A stretch of DNA of 43,775 bases from an uncultured Methanosarcinales archaeon (GTDB taxonomy: Archaea; Nanobdellota; Nanobdellia; Woesearchaeales; JACPBV01), in NCBI GenBank assembly GCA_964492935.1, contig CAZBLF010000005.1:1-43775 (forward strand), given 5' to 3'. Positions 1 through 3,000 of the stretch are shown one piece after another (the stretch's first letter is position 1; each line of letters opens with the position of its first letter). Made by a program: the position numbers.

Positions 1-3000
1 TATTCTTGGTGGTGGCGCTAGTGCGGTTACGTTTGGCGTTGCTTTATTTGCGATTGGTGCGGGTTTAGCGGTTGGATTAGGAGCTGTTTCTGCAATTGGG
101 CAGGGTATTGCTGCTTCAGCCGGTATCGAATCGGTTGCTAAAGATGATAAGGCGTTTGGAAAGTCTATTTTATTTTCCGTGTTGCCTGAAACTCAGGCCC
201 TTTATGGATTCTTGATTGCTATTTTATTGTTAGTTGGAGCTGGTGTGTTAGGTGCGGCTCGTTCTGGTATAACGACGGCAATGGGTGTTGTTGCTATCGG
301 TGCTGGATTGGCTGCTGGAGTTGCTGGTATCTCGGCGATTGGACAGGGTATTGCGGCATCATCTGGTATTCGTGCGGTTACTGCTAAACCTAAATCTTTT
401 GGTAAGGCGATCTTATTTTCGGTTCTTCCTGAGACGCAGGCTCTTTATGGATTTTTGATTGCTATCTTGCTTCTTGTTGGGGGCGGCATTTTAGGTGCTG
501 CTAAGGTTGGTTTATCGGTTAATGTGGGTTTGATTGCTGTGGGAGCTGGATTGGCTACTGGTTTAGCTGCGGTTTCTGCATTAGGACAGGGTTTCGCGGC
601 TTCGTCAGGTATTGAAGCTGTTTCTCGTGATGAGAAATCTTTTGGTAAATCTATTCTGTTTTCGGTTCTTCCTGAGACGCAGGCTCTTTATGGATTCTTG
701 ATCGCTATTTTATTGTTAGTTGGAGGCGGCTTATTGGGAGCGGTTAAACAAGGCATTTCGATGTCTGTTGGTTTGATTGCTATTGGTGCTGGGTTAGCTG
801 CAGGTTTGGCTGCGATCTCTGCACTTGGCCAAGGTATTGCTGCTTCATCTGGATTACGTGAAACGGCTAAGAACCCTAAGGCATTTGGTAAGTCGATTTT
901 GTTTTCGGTGTTGCCTGAAACACAGGCATTGTATGGGTTCTTGATTGCTATTCTTTTGTTAGTAGGTGGTGGAATCCTTGGCGGTTCATCTGCTAGCGGT
1001 TTGACGTCTGGTGTAGGCCTCATTGGAATTGGTGCAGGTATTGCTGTTGGTTTAGCTGCTGTCTCGGCTATCGGTCAGGGTATGGCTGCGAGTTCTGGTG
1101 TGAGTGCTACGGCGGCTGATGGAAAGATGTTTGGTAAATCTATTTTGTTTTCGGTGTTACCTGAAACACAGGCATTGTATGGATTTTTAGTTGCTGTTTT
1201 ATTCATGATTGGCGGAGGATTATTTGGTGCGGTGCAAGTCGGTATTACGACGCCGGTCGGACTTATTGTTATTGGAGCTAGCTTATCGGTGGGGATTGCA
1301 GGTATCTCTGCGATTGGACAGGGTATTGCTGCTTCGTCTGGTATTGATGCTGTTGCTGGCGATGAGAAGTCGTTTGGTAAGGCAATTTTGTTTAGTGTGT
1401 TGCCGGAAACTCAGGCATTGTATGGATTTTTAGTTGCCATTCTCTTGTTAGTGGGTGGCGGATTGTTGGGTGCGGTTAAACAGGGCATTACTTTATCAGT
1501 AGGTCTTGTTGCGATTGGAGCTGGTTTAGCAGCTGGTTTAGCTGCGGTTTCTGCACTTGGACAGGGTTTCGCGGCTTCGGCTGGTTTAGCTGCAACGGCG
1601 CGCAATCCTAAATCTTTTGGTAAATCTATCTTATTTTCGGTACTTCCTGAGACGCAGGCATTGTATGGATTCTTGATTGCTATCTTATTGTTAGTGGGTG
1701 GCGGAATCCTTGGTGCGGTGAGTAGTGGTTTAACGGTCGGTATCGGTTTAGTTGCTGTTGGAGCTGGATTAGGCGTTGGATTAAGCGCGTTCTCGGCTGT
1801 TGGACAGGGTATTGTTGCTAGTACGGCTGCAGATGTGGTTAGTACGAACGAGAAATCATTTGGTAAGTCGATCTTATTTTCGGTGTTACCTGAAACGCAG
1901 GCGTTGTATGGGTTCTTGATTGCTATTTTGCTTATTGCTTCGGGCGGTTTGATTGGAGCTGCTACTAGTGAGATTCCGATGTCTATTGGTTTGGTTTCGG
2001 TTGGTGCTGGTTTAGCTGTTGGAATTGCTGGTTTATCAGCACTTGGACAGGGTATTGCTGCTGCATCTGGTGTTGGATCGATTGCGGAGAAGGATAGTGT
2101 CTTTGGTAAATCTATCTTATTTTCGGTGTTGCCGGAGACGCAGGCATTGTATGGAATTATTATTGCTGTTTTATTATTGACTGGAGTTGGATTGTTAGGT
2201 ACACTCAAGACTGGCATTAGTTTGGTACAGGGATTGGGCGGAGTAGGAATTGGATTAACGATGGGACTTGCAGCGGTAAGTGCTGTTGGTCAAGGTATAG
2301 TGTCTGCTTCTTCGATTGGAGGGGTTGTGAGAGATAGTAAGTCTACGGGAAAGAGTTTGGTGTTAAGTGTTATTCCCGAGACATATGCAATATTTGGATT
2401 ATTGATAGCAATACTTTTGCTTATCGGACTACAATTGATATAGGTGATGAGAATGGATGGTAGCGAACATATAAAAAAGGAAATGCTTGGGGAGGCTCAA
2501 CAAGAAGTTGAGAAGATCGAGAAGGAGGTAGCTGAGAAAGTTACTAGTATGAAGAAAGAACATGCTGCTGCGCGAGAGGCGTATGAAAAACAGCGGACGC
2601 TTGAGAGTAAGCGTGCGGTGCAGCTGTTTAGCGATAAAACGTTAGCACAGTCTCGGTTGCAGGTGAAGAGAAACTACTTGATTGAGCGTGAAAAAGTGGT
2701 TGAGAGCATGGTAAAAAGTGCCGCGAGAATTAGTCATGCTGACAAGGAGTATCAGAAATTTTTGAAAGGGCTTGTGAACGAGCATAAGGGTAGTTTGGAT
2801 GGGAAGATTACGATTCACTGCAATAGCAAAGATGTTTCGTTTGTCAGCGGATTGGTTGATGGTATTGCAGTTGAGGAGGCGGATATTTCTGGTGGTATTA
2901 TCGTCGAAAATGAGGCTGGTAAGAGGATTGACGAGCAGTTATCTGAATCTATTGAACGCGGCATGGACACGATTAGGGAGGTTGTTGTTAAACACCTAGG

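What a model noticed while it worked through the whole genome (the two positions that open the first line are those of the whole stretch)
2..2443. Whole A-ATPase rotor ring encoded as one 13-hairpin polypeptide
The A-type ATPase proteolipid (subunit K/c) gene, split by a contig break between C14 (25878-26777) and C5 (2-2443), encodes about 1109 aa made of 13 tandem c-subunit hairpins. I read it as a complete rotor ring made as a single polypeptide (26 helices, 12 ion-binding carboxylates), evolved independently of the only known case, Methanopyrus kandleri. It would be the first such monomeric rotor in a mesophilic DPANN archaeon, and it fixes ring stoichiometry genetically (13 hairpins, 12 sites, about 4 ions per ATP).
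Evidence so far: pfam.tsv: 10 ATP-synt_C domains in g00324 (813 aa, runs off C5 start) and 3 in g00700 (300 aa, runs off C14 end); the last 13 nt of C14 equal the first 13 nt of C5, and operon order I-K | K-E-C-F-A-B-D fits. Same-genus genome G406 has one uninterrupted 1109-aa ORF, 88-92% identical, with 13 P[EQ]T[QY] motifs (PQTQ, 11x PETQ, PETY). Other genera of the family have 81-180 aa c subunits. No two 243-nt repeat units of the C5 part are more than 73% identical at DNA level (fixed register, call 41), so the array is not a collapse of identical repeats. A single-sequence AlphaFold2 run of the G406 protein gave only helices at low confidence (mean pLDDT 41, call 49) and says nothing on ring closure.
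(Added by a program. Inside this text positions count along the whole contig: contig position 1 is position 1 of the stretch shown here. "Call 12" and the like, gene names such as g00115 and contig names such as C1 are that model's own, and its searches are not shown. The text may have been shortened before it was handed on; [...] marks where a part breaks off. The agent that wrote the report below was given it as the finding of a first reader that could run no searches.)

Follow-up and report, generated by a model that had tools for sequence, protein, structure and literature searches.

The report
Single-chain 13-hairpin ATPase rotor gene
This small marine archaeon encodes the membrane rotor of its ATP-making machine as one long protein of 13 repeated units instead of many small copies, a design described so far only for one heat-loving methanogen but which turns out to be present, unremarked, in many uncultured archaea.

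Summary
Window 2-2443 is the 3' part (10 hairpins) of an A-type ATPase subunit K gene. The 5' part (N-terminal tail plus 3 hairpins) ends contig C14. I confirmed the join in three ways. There is a unique in-frame 13-nt overlap. The two pieces are colinear with an uninterrupted same-genus gene. Independently assembled contigs in 4 public runs bridge the break. The gene gives 1109 aa and 13 hairpins: 12 carry the Q...ET(Q/Y) ion-site motif and hairpin 1 carries Q in place of E. No other K gene is in the assembly. AlphaFold2 with an alignment gives a confident all-hairpin model (pLDDT 83.9, pTM 0.84), but I could not inspect ring closure.

The claim of uniqueness is overstated. Thirteen of 401 sampled genomes of the same order have the long form, and so do dozens of database proteins. 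Other archaea, including cultured Methanomicrobiales, carry 12-, 7- and 6-hairpin forms. Hairpin and AtpA trees place the DPANN genes apart from the Methanopyrus type. They also place them apart from the short-K ATPases of the same family, which suggests a separate, probably transferred, operon lineage. My searches found only Methanopyrus kandleri in print. Verdict: a real gene and a new variant of a known kind. That one chain forms the whole ring is inferred, not shown.

The parts
2..2443 (+). 3' part of the subunit K gene: end of the hairpin 3/4 linker, hairpins 4-13 and the stop codon. The 5' part is G000:C14:25878-26777.
1..13 (+). 13 nt identical to the last 13 nt of contig C14. This is the in-frame join point.
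11..253 (+). hairpin 4 (SAIGQG ... PETQ)
254..496 (+). hairpin 5 (PETQ)
497..739 (+). hairpin 6 (PETQ)
740..982 (+). hairpin 7 (PETQ). It is 88% aa and 78% nt identical to hairpin 10.
986..1228 (+). hairpin 8 (PETQ), preceded by one extra linker residue
1229..1471 (+). hairpin 9 (PETQ)
1472..1714 (+). hairpin 10 (PETQ)
1715..1957 (+). hairpin 11 (PETQ)
1958..2200 (+). hairpin 12 (PETQ). It forms a position-specific clade across 10 DPANN proteins.
2201..2443 (+). hairpin 13 (PETY), the most divergent unit, plus the stop codon. It forms a position-specific clade with support 0.996.
2444..3007 (+). subunit E. Its GTG start directly follows the K stop codon.
3004..4038 (+). subunit C (AC39/d type), the socket between the central stalk and the ring
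4038..4331 (+). subunit F
4344..6104 (+). catalytic subunit A
6101..7483 (+). subunit B
7530..8153 (+). central-stalk subunit D

Best explanation
The gene encodes the complete membrane rotor of an A1AO ATP synthase/ATPase as one 1109-aa polypeptide. It begins with a roughly 66-aa N-terminal tail that is predicted disordered and carries N-glycosylation sequons, so it probably lies outside the cell. Thirteen helical hairpins (26 membrane helices) follow, joined by short loops.

Hairpins 2-13 each carry the helix-1 Gln and the helix-2 Glu-Thr that define Na+-type binding sites. Hairpin 1 has lost both (GAG in helix 1, PQTQ in helix 2). The ring would therefore carry 12 ions per turn, or 4.0 per ATP with three catalytic sites, and would pass one blank hairpin across subunit I on each revolution.

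Shown: the gene is continuous; it has 13 hairpins and 12 carboxylates; it is the only K gene in the assembly; it sits in a full operon; it is under purifying selection; and the same architecture recurs in relatives. Inferred: that one chain closes into the whole ring, that the ring has 13 hairpins, that the ion is Na+, and the direction of operation (synthase or pump).
For: Gene continuity rests. Hairpin and motif counts rest.

The operon is an H-like ORF (weak match), I, then K on C14, and K, E, C, F, A, B, D on C5. The order I-K-E-C, with an uninterrupted 13-hairpin K, is found in L002, L003 and L004.

Ten uninterrupted frames of 1048-1134 aa occur in other genomes of the order. One 13-hairpin frame lies in a single-cell genome record (L019).

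Purifying selection: against the same-genus gene, identity is 82% at nucleotide level and 93% at protein level. Unit-to-unit identity is 43% at codon position 3 against 82% at position 2.

The total of 13 is kept although the middle hairpins are reshuffled between lineages, while hairpins 1, 2, 3, 12 and 13 are position-specific. Maximal lengths in several lineages sit at 12-13 hairpins.

A solved A/V-type ring made of chains 73-102 aa long has 12 chains per entry (132 chains in 11 entries). A ring of 12-13 hairpins is therefore a known full ring size.

AlphaFold2 of the 92%-identical same-genus protein P0002, with 24 aligned sequences, gave pLDDT 83.9 and pTM 0.84, with all 13 hairpins confident and residues 1-60 disordered. 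Neighbouring hairpin pairs superpose on Enterococcus hirae NtpK (TM 0.87 normalised to the target).

For the Na+ motif I used passages of PMC2359735 together with the sequences.
Against: There are no protein data, so cleavage into smaller units is not excluded. I could not inspect model coordinates, so ring closure is unseen.

A/V-type rings can be larger: E. hirae has 10 chains of two hairpins per entry. The 6- and 7-hairpin forms must assemble from several chains, so a 13-hairpin chain could also combine with a second copy.

Short-read assemblies can drop units. P0010 and P0015 equal P0005 and P0012 minus exactly 81 aa, with 0 mismatches. The assembly is 84.8% complete, so a second K gene in the missing part cannot be excluded.
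Confidence: 0.75

Rival explanations
1. The 13-hairpin chain is only part of the rotor. Two copies (26 hairpins), or a chain cleaved after translation into smaller proteolipids, build a ring whose size the gene does not fix.
For: The 6- and 7-hairpin K proteins in other archaea must form rings from several chains. Solved A/V-type rings range up to 20 hairpins, as in E. hirae with 10 two-hairpin chains per entry. No protein-level evidence exists here.
Against: Independent lineages converge on 12-13 hairpins as the maximum. P0127, with 15 hairpins and a different motif (AEAL), is the one longer form seen. Some 12-hairpin genes are exact doublings of a 6-hairpin pattern (P0017, P0019 and P0030 read PQTQ, PETQ x4, SETF, twice), which is what fusing two half-rings into a whole ring would give. 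A 12-hairpin ring is solved. The loops are short and show no conserved cleavage motif (reading). The model's pTM is 0.84 for the single chain. A 24-site ring would mean 8 ions per ATP.
Confidence: 0.15
2. The unit number is an assembly artefact: the true gene in this genome has more or fewer than 13 hairpins, or the two contigs do not belong together.
For: The gene is broken in this assembly and in G016, G076 and G086. Logan contigs break at repeated 31-mers inside the gene. Exact one-unit deletions are seen in database variants.
Against: A contig in each of 4 runs bridges the join. The pieces are colinear with the same-genus gene with no gap. There is one-to-one hairpin correspondence with P0002 at 88-97% identity for all 13 units. 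Ten other genomes have 1048-1134-aa frames. No exact repeat of 40 nt or more exists, and units are at most 78% identical.
Confidence: 0.04
3. The gene is a decaying or non-functional relic in a reduced symbiont genome.
For: Only 20 of 41 related genomes have an A-ATPase at all. DPANN genomes are reduced.
Against: The 1109-codon frame is intact, with all nine operon genes present. Identity to the same-genus gene is 93% at protein level against 82% at nucleotide level. The ion-site motif is kept in 12 of 13 units.
Confidence: 0.03

Closest known systems
Methanopyrus kandleri subunit K. It has 1021 aa and 13 hairpins and was deduced from sequence to be a monomeric rotor (Lolkema & Boekema 2003, seen only as a citation). 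Passages about it were read in PMC2359735, PMC9171764 and bioRxiv 10.64898/2026.10.01.756066.
   Same: One gene, 13 tandem hairpins of about 80 aa, PET-type helix-2 motif with a helix-1 GQG, and no N- or C-terminal catalytic additions. It is 47-50% identical over the full length (P0028 and relatives).
   Different: All 13 Methanopyrus hairpins keep Glu (PETQ or PETR), whereas here hairpin 1 has Gln and the last has PETY. There is no positional orthology: mean identity is 52.8% on the diagonal against 52.0% off it. All 26 Methanopyrus hairpins form their own clade, support 0.835. The AtpA of Methanopyri-like operons lies in a different clade. The gene here has an N-terminal tail of about 66 aa. 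The host looks mesophilic.
Triplicated K of Methanocaldococcus jannaschii (three hairpins, two carboxylates). This is recalled from the literature. Only the triplication is mentioned in the PMC2359735 passages I read.
   Same: A multi-hairpin chain in which one hairpin has lost the carboxylate. That in M. jannaschii it is the first hairpin, with Gln, is recalled and not tested here.
   Different: Three units against 13. Several copies are needed for a ring there.
6- and 12-hairpin K proteins found here. These come from Thermoplasmata, Undinarchaeota and 'Methanobacteriota/Thermococci' MAGs, and from cultured Methanomicrobiales such as Methanocalculus taiwanensis, Methanogenium marinum DSM 15558 and Methanoculleus frigidifontis.
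   Same: The first hairpin is PQTQ and the last ends in ET[YF]. The first hairpins of 15 of 23 such proteins cluster together. The nearest AtpA neighbours of the DPANN clade are two 12-hairpin operons, support 0.914.
   Different: 6 or 12 units rather than 13. Many Thermoplasmata forms carry an N-terminal PKD domain.
Solved A/V-type rings: Enterococcus hirae NtpK (2bl2) and the 12-chain ring of chains 73-102 aa long (5gar, 6qum and others).
   Same: These are the best sequence matches in the PDB (E 5e-14 and about 1e-10). Hairpin pairs of the model superpose on 2bl2_A with TM 0.87 normalised to the target.
   Different: Those rings are non-covalent assemblies of 10 or 12 separate chains.

Membership tests
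A/V-type ATPase proteolipid, subunit K/c (Pfam PF00137) | Matches the ATP-synt_C profile above the curated cut-off | tested here: met
   There are 10 stretches in the window frame (540 bits against a cut-off of 24) and 3 in the C14 frame. The genome holds 13 matches over the cut-off.
A/V-type ATPase proteolipid, subunit K/c (Pfam PF00137) | Conserved ion-binding carboxylate in the second helix of the hairpin | tested here: met
   Glu is present in 12 of 13 hairpins. Hairpin 1 has Gln.
A/V-type ATPase proteolipid, subunit K/c (Pfam PF00137) | Gene lies in the A-ATPase operon between subunits I and E | tested here: met
   Subunit I is directly upstream, with a 4-nt overlap, on C14. Subunit E is directly downstream. 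The same order is found in L002-L004.
Monomeric 13-hairpin rotor of the Methanopyrus kandleri kind | One open reading frame with 13 tandem hairpins | tested here: met
   The join is confirmed. There are 13 hairpins by HMM and by motif. Ten other genomes of the order have uninterrupted frames of 1048-1134 aa; the three of these whose motifs were counted (G001, G022, G032) each have 13.
Monomeric 13-hairpin rotor of the Methanopyrus kandleri kind | No other K gene in the genome | tested here: met
   All 13 PF00137 matches lie in this gene. The assembly is 84.8% complete, so this is not final.
Monomeric 13-hairpin rotor of the Methanopyrus kandleri kind | Every hairpin keeps the full ion site (13 sites) | tested here: not met
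   Hairpin 1 is PQTQ and lacks the helix-1 Gln. Methanopyrus proteins have Glu in all 13 (PMC2359735 passage).
Monomeric 13-hairpin rotor of the Methanopyrus kandleri kind | Shared descent of the 13-unit array with the Methanopyrus gene | tested here: not met
   There is no positional orthology. Hairpin clades are separate. AtpA clades are separate. Concerted evolution within each gene could hide shared descent.
Monomeric 13-hairpin rotor of the Methanopyrus kandleri kind | The single chain closes into the whole ring | not testable with these tools
This has never been shown experimentally for M. kandleri either, according to the papers read.
Na+-binding c/K subunits (ligand set of PMC2359735) | Gln/Glu in helix 1 plus Glu and Ser/Thr in helix 2 | tested here: met
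   Hairpins 2-13 have S-A-[ILV]-G-Q-G in helix 1 and P-E-T in helix 2. The ion actually used is not testable here.

The most novel reading that the evidence does not exclude
Single-chain whole rings (12-13 hairpins) and half rings (6 hairpins) may form a widespread class of A-ATPase rotors, absent from the literature I searched, in mostly mesophilic archaea. The lineages include Woesearchaeota-type DPANN, Undinarchaeota, Thermoplasmata and Methanomicrobiales. In this class the gene fixes ring size, and the number of ion sites is tuned unit by unit: 10-12 Glu in the DPANN genes and 13 in Methanopyrus. Some rotors would drag an extracellular appendage round with them, either a glycosylated tail or a PKD domain. 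The DPANN version would travel as a whole operon between families. Covalent ring closure would then be a general solution to stoichiometry or assembly, not a heat adaptation of Methanopyrus.
Probability: 0.55. Interest if true: 0.75.

Novelty: new variant of a known kind. Interest (0 to 1): 0.62.

Why it matters
Ring stoichiometry sets the ion-to-ATP ratio, and it is normally an emergent property of subunit packing. A gene that hard-wires 13 hairpins and 12 sites makes the ratio readable from sequence.

The M. kandleri case has stood for over twenty years as a single curiosity known from sequence alone. The reviews and the 2026 preprint I read still list only 1, 2, 3 or 13 hairpins.

If the design recurs in mesophilic marine DPANN and in several other archaeal lineages, heat stability is no longer a sufficient explanation. 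Six-hairpin forms occur in cultured methanogens, and that gives experimentally tractable systems for asking three things: how such rotors insert, whether they close, and what fixing the ratio at about 4 ions per ATP buys an energy-limited cell.

Tried and rejected
- **Full-length structural match.** Foldseek against the PDB gave no full-length match (no hit at E <= 0.001). The hits cover only two hairpins, as expected because solved rings are multi-chain. This says nothing on ring closure.
- **Model coordinates.** They are not exposed to scripts, so I could not measure the distance between hairpins 1 and 13.
- **RNA evidence.** No RNA holder was listed among the sequencing runs, so nothing can be said about expression.
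- **Extra precomputed Pfam labels.** PF22619 and PF22648 on some long K proteins are sub-threshold or zero-stretch hits inside hairpins. They are not real extra domains.
- **Complex prediction.** I did not use it. Any two K hairpins would be expected to dock by likeness to solved rings, so a pass would not test closure.
- **Laying this genome's reads on the same-genus gene.** I rejected this because the two genes are only about 80-82% identical at DNA level.
- **'Halanaerobiaceae bacterium' record (L033).** It carries a 10-hairpin K on a 5-kb contig. I did not follow it up.
- **Literature.** Six searches found no paper describing poly-hairpin K subunits outside Methanopyrus. Subscription journals and supplements were not covered.
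Full report
**What is at the coordinates**

Window 2-2443 (+) is a frame of 813 codons that runs off the contig start. 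It matches the ATP-synt_C profile PF00137 ten times (540 bits). It carries PETQ nine times and then PETY, 81-82 residues apart.

It is followed without a gap by the genes for subunits E, C, F, A, B and D of an A/V-type ATPase.

Contig C14 ends in a frame of 300 codons that starts at an ATG preceded by GGAGG. That frame overlaps the stop of a 647-aa subunit I gene by 4 nt. A 102-aa ORF with a weak G/H-like match lies upstream. The C14 frame holds a 66-aa N-terminal tail and three hairpins: PQTQ, PETQ, PETQ.

**Is the gene really continuous?**

Four results support the join.

- Among 57 contigs on both strands, only the C14 end overlaps the C5 start. The overlap is 13 nt and in frame, and the 13-mer is found nowhere else in the genome.
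- Against the uninterrupted same-genus gene (L002), the C14 end aligns to base 1512 and the C5 start to base 1500. That is the same 13-nt overlap, with no missing or extra unit.
- I laid Logan contigs of four public runs from four studies on window 1-2443. In each run a 778-nt contig covers window 1-445 and continues 333 nt upstream. The 20 letters directly upstream of window base 1 are the C14 bases that precede the overlap (table 5c against the C14 end printed). These runs may include the source sample, so they are an independent assembly but not necessarily independent DNA.
- The Logan contigs themselves break at window 424-445, 659-696 and 1124-1158. Repeated 31-mers begin at two of these places, window 416/659 and 1124. 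This explains why short-read assemblers break this gene.

The joined frame is 3327 nt, or 1109 codons. The assembly (84.8% complete) holds exactly 13 PF00137 matches, all in this gene.

**The repeats are old and under selection**

The ten 243-nt units in the window are on average 64% identical at DNA level. Identity by codon position is 67.8, 81.7 and 43.4%.

Against the same-genus gene, identity is about 82% at DNA level and 93% at protein level. This is not a collapse or a recent blow-up of identical repeats.

**Ion sites**

Hairpins 2-13 each have S-A-[ILV]-G-Q-G in helix 1 and P-E-T-(Q/Y) in helix 2. Hairpin 1 has G-A-G and P-Q-T-Q.

The helix-1 Gln plus helix-2 Glu and Thr are the Na+ ligands named in the passages of PMC2359735 that I read. 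The sequence therefore predicts 12 Na+-type sites and one blank hairpin, or 4.0 ions per ATP. The ion and the direction of operation are inferred.

**Structure**

AlphaFold2 on the 92%-identical same-genus protein P0002, with an alignment of 24 long K proteins (A1), gave mean pLDDT 83.9 and pTM 0.84. Residues 1-60 are disordered, and 13 confident helical hairpins are separated by short loops.

Foldseek superposes neighbouring hairpin pairs on Enterococcus hirae NtpK (2bl2_A; TM 0.87 normalised to the target) and on V-ATPase c subunits. No full-length match is possible because solved rings are multi-chain.

I could not read coordinates, so closure of the ring is not shown.

By sequence, the nearest solved relatives are NtpK and a subunit K of 73-102 aa that occurs as 12 chains per entry (132 chains in 11 entries). 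A ring of 12 single hairpins is thus a known full A/V-type ring size, and 13 is next to it.

**How widespread it is**

- Among the 41 nearest genomes, uninterrupted 13-motif frames occur in G001 (same genus), G022 and G032. Fragments occur in G016. These three are in other families. Same-family genera have only 81-180-aa frames.
- In an even sample of 401 genomes of the order, 13 (counting G000) have a match at E <= 1e-60, spread over 12 families. Nine have frames of 1048-1134 aa.
- The 5.8-billion-protein search returned 173 hits among proteins of 447-1423 aa.
- A hairpin HMM built from the window's units counted 13 hairpins in 18 proteins. Twelve of these are of DPANN type and six of Methanopyrus type. 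It counted 12 hairpins in 14 proteins, 6 in 73, 7 in several, and 15 in one with a different motif.
- Among GTDB species representatives, 526 stretches encode relatives. Of the best 78 loci, 12 have 13 hairpins and 9 have 12.
- Record titles name Nanoarchaeota, Candidatus Woesearchaeota and Nanobdellota MAGs, and one single-cell genome (L019). They also name Thermoplasmata, Undinarchaeota and Methanopyri MAGs. For the 6-hairpin form they name cultured Methanocalculus, Methanogenium, Methanoculleus and Methanofollis.
- Two 12-hairpin DPANN variants equal 13-hairpin proteins minus exactly 81 residues, with 0 mismatches. These are either assembly collapses or real polymorphism. Either way, unit counts from short reads need care.

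**Relation to Methanopyrus**

Methanopyrus-type proteins have Glu in all 13 hairpins, with PETR at units 6, 9 and 12, and no special first or last unit. All other long forms start with PQTQ and end with ET[YF].

Hairpin-by-hairpin identity between the window gene and P0028 is 52.8% on the diagonal and 52.0% off it.

In a FastTree of 365 hairpins:

- All 26 Methanopyrus hairpins form one clade (support 0.835).
- DPANN hairpins 1, 2, 3, 12 and 13 each form position-specific clades across ten proteins. Support is 0.81-0.996; one stray fragment sits in two of these clades.
- The middle hairpins are scrambled between lineages, although the total stays 13.

This supports separate expansion of the two arrays. 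The caveat is that gene conversion within each gene would give the same picture.

**Operon lineage**

The window's subunit A is 91% identical to G001. It is 79, 71 and 69% identical to G022, G016 and G032, which are in other families and have poly-hairpin K. It is only 60-64% identical to same-family genera with short K. That range includes G005 and G013, which are flagged unpublished, and it holds without them.

The control protein eIF2-gamma from the same window shows the opposite order. It is 63-68% identical within the family and 66, 64 and 61% to G016, G032 and G022. This is a single control marker.

In a FastTree of 65 AtpA sequences, I left out L103-L106 because loci gave AtpA sequences with the same identity to the window. 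The tree shows:

- All 13 DPANN poly-hairpin operons form one clade (support 0.994).
- That clade's neighbours are two non-DPANN 12-hairpin operons (0.914).
- The 11 same-order short-K operons fall elsewhere, with Undinarchaeota (0.921).
- The Methanopyri-like 13-hairpin operons fall elsewhere again.

The tree is midpoint-rooted and built on one protein. Nearly all non-DPANN sequences in it were chosen by having a long K.

My reading is that the 13-hairpin operon is a distinct ATPase lineage, shared patchily across families of the order. The pattern fits operon transfer, or old paralogy followed by loss.

**Habitat and temperature**

Twenty runs from 17 studies hold at least part of the stretch. 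The four I laid are labelled marine, aquatic and hydrothermal-vent metagenomes.

The IVYWREL fraction of 569 long ORFs is 0.3885. By the recalled Zeldovich formula this gives about 29 degrees C. The mean tRNA G+C of the 16 tRNAs my script parsed is 57%, in a 42% G+C genome. These proxies fit a mesophile. They are not measurements.

**N-terminal tail**

The tail is 66 aa here and 40-95 aa in most DPANN relatives. It is absent in P0008 and P0014. It is predicted disordered and is dense in N-x-S/T sequons: 2-7 in the tail against 0-4 in the roughly 1040 remaining residues.

With the usual N-out topology of K hairpins (established knowledge, not tested here), the tail would sit outside the cell at the mouth of the ring.

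**Literature**

Six full-text searches and the passages I read turned up nothing beyond M. kandleri.

- PMC2359735 describes only M. kandleri as a 13-hairpin case.
- PMC9171764 speaks of '1, 2, 3, or even 13 hairpins'.
- A preprint of October 2026, 10.64898/2026.10.01.756066, cites M. kandleri alone.
- PMC10839748 only cites the 2003 paper.

The Lolkema & Boekema paper itself was not read. Subscription journals and supplements were not covered.

**Verdict**

The gene is real and has 13 hairpins and 12 sites. It belongs to a lineage separate from Methanopyrus.

That one chain forms the entire ring is the best-supported reading (about 0.75), but it rests on inference.

Noticed in passing
L071, L077, L081, L084; P0048, P0069, P0108, P0115, P0118: Cultured Methanomicrobiales encode a K subunit of about 480-512 aa with 6 hairpins. 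They include Methanocalculus taiwanensis and M. chunghsingensis, Methanoculleus frigidifontis, Methanogenium marinum DSM 15558 and Methanofollis fontis. The reviews I read list only 1, 2, 3 or 13 hairpins. These organisms could be used to test half-ring rotors at the bench.
   Followed up: partly
P0060 and about 40 similar proteins; L037-L063: Thermoplasmata K subunits of about 600-650 aa have an N-terminal PKD/Ig-like domain (PF18911, E 2.4e-17) in front of 6 hairpins. If the topology is N-out, this would be an extracellular domain fixed to a rotating ring.
   Followed up: partly
P0017, P0019, P0030: These 12-hairpin proteins read PQTQ, PETQ x4, SETF twice over. They are a tandem duplication of a whole 6-hairpin gene, and they have an N-terminal segment of about 140 aa.
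   Followed up: no
P0005 vs P0010; P0012 vs P0015: These pairs of database proteins differ only by an exact 81-aa (one-hairpin) deletion, with 0 mismatches elsewhere. This is either an assembly collapse or real strain-level change of ring size from 13 to 12.
   Followed up: partly
P0001, P0004, P0011, P0012, P0003: Other DPANN 13-hairpin proteins carry extra Gln-for-Glu hairpins at positions 6 and/or 10, or 9. That gives 10-11 sites instead of 12. The preceding hairpin has a distinctive IIPETQALMGF motif, as if a two-hairpin module had been copied.
   Followed up: partly
P0127: This 1139-aa protein has 15 hairpin matches and an AEAL motif instead of PETQ. It is only 37% identical to the window protein and is a different kind of poly-hairpin proteolipid.
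   Followed up: no
G000 relatives: Only 20 of 41 related genomes have an A-ATPase subunit A, while 38 of 41 have eIF2-gamma. The ATPase is patchy in this order, and it comes in at least three operon types: single-hairpin, double-hairpin and 13-hairpin K.
   Followed up: partly
L033: A 5-kb contig in a record titled Halanaerobiaceae bacterium carries a 10-hairpin archaeal-type K fragment. This is probably a binning error.
   Followed up: no
window 10317-12254 (-): A complete DNA gyrase B gene (GyrB, Toprim and HATPase_c domains) lies in this small archaeal genome.
   Followed up: no
window 33428-35863 (-): An 811-codon ORF has no Pfam match at E <= 1e-5.
   Followed up: no
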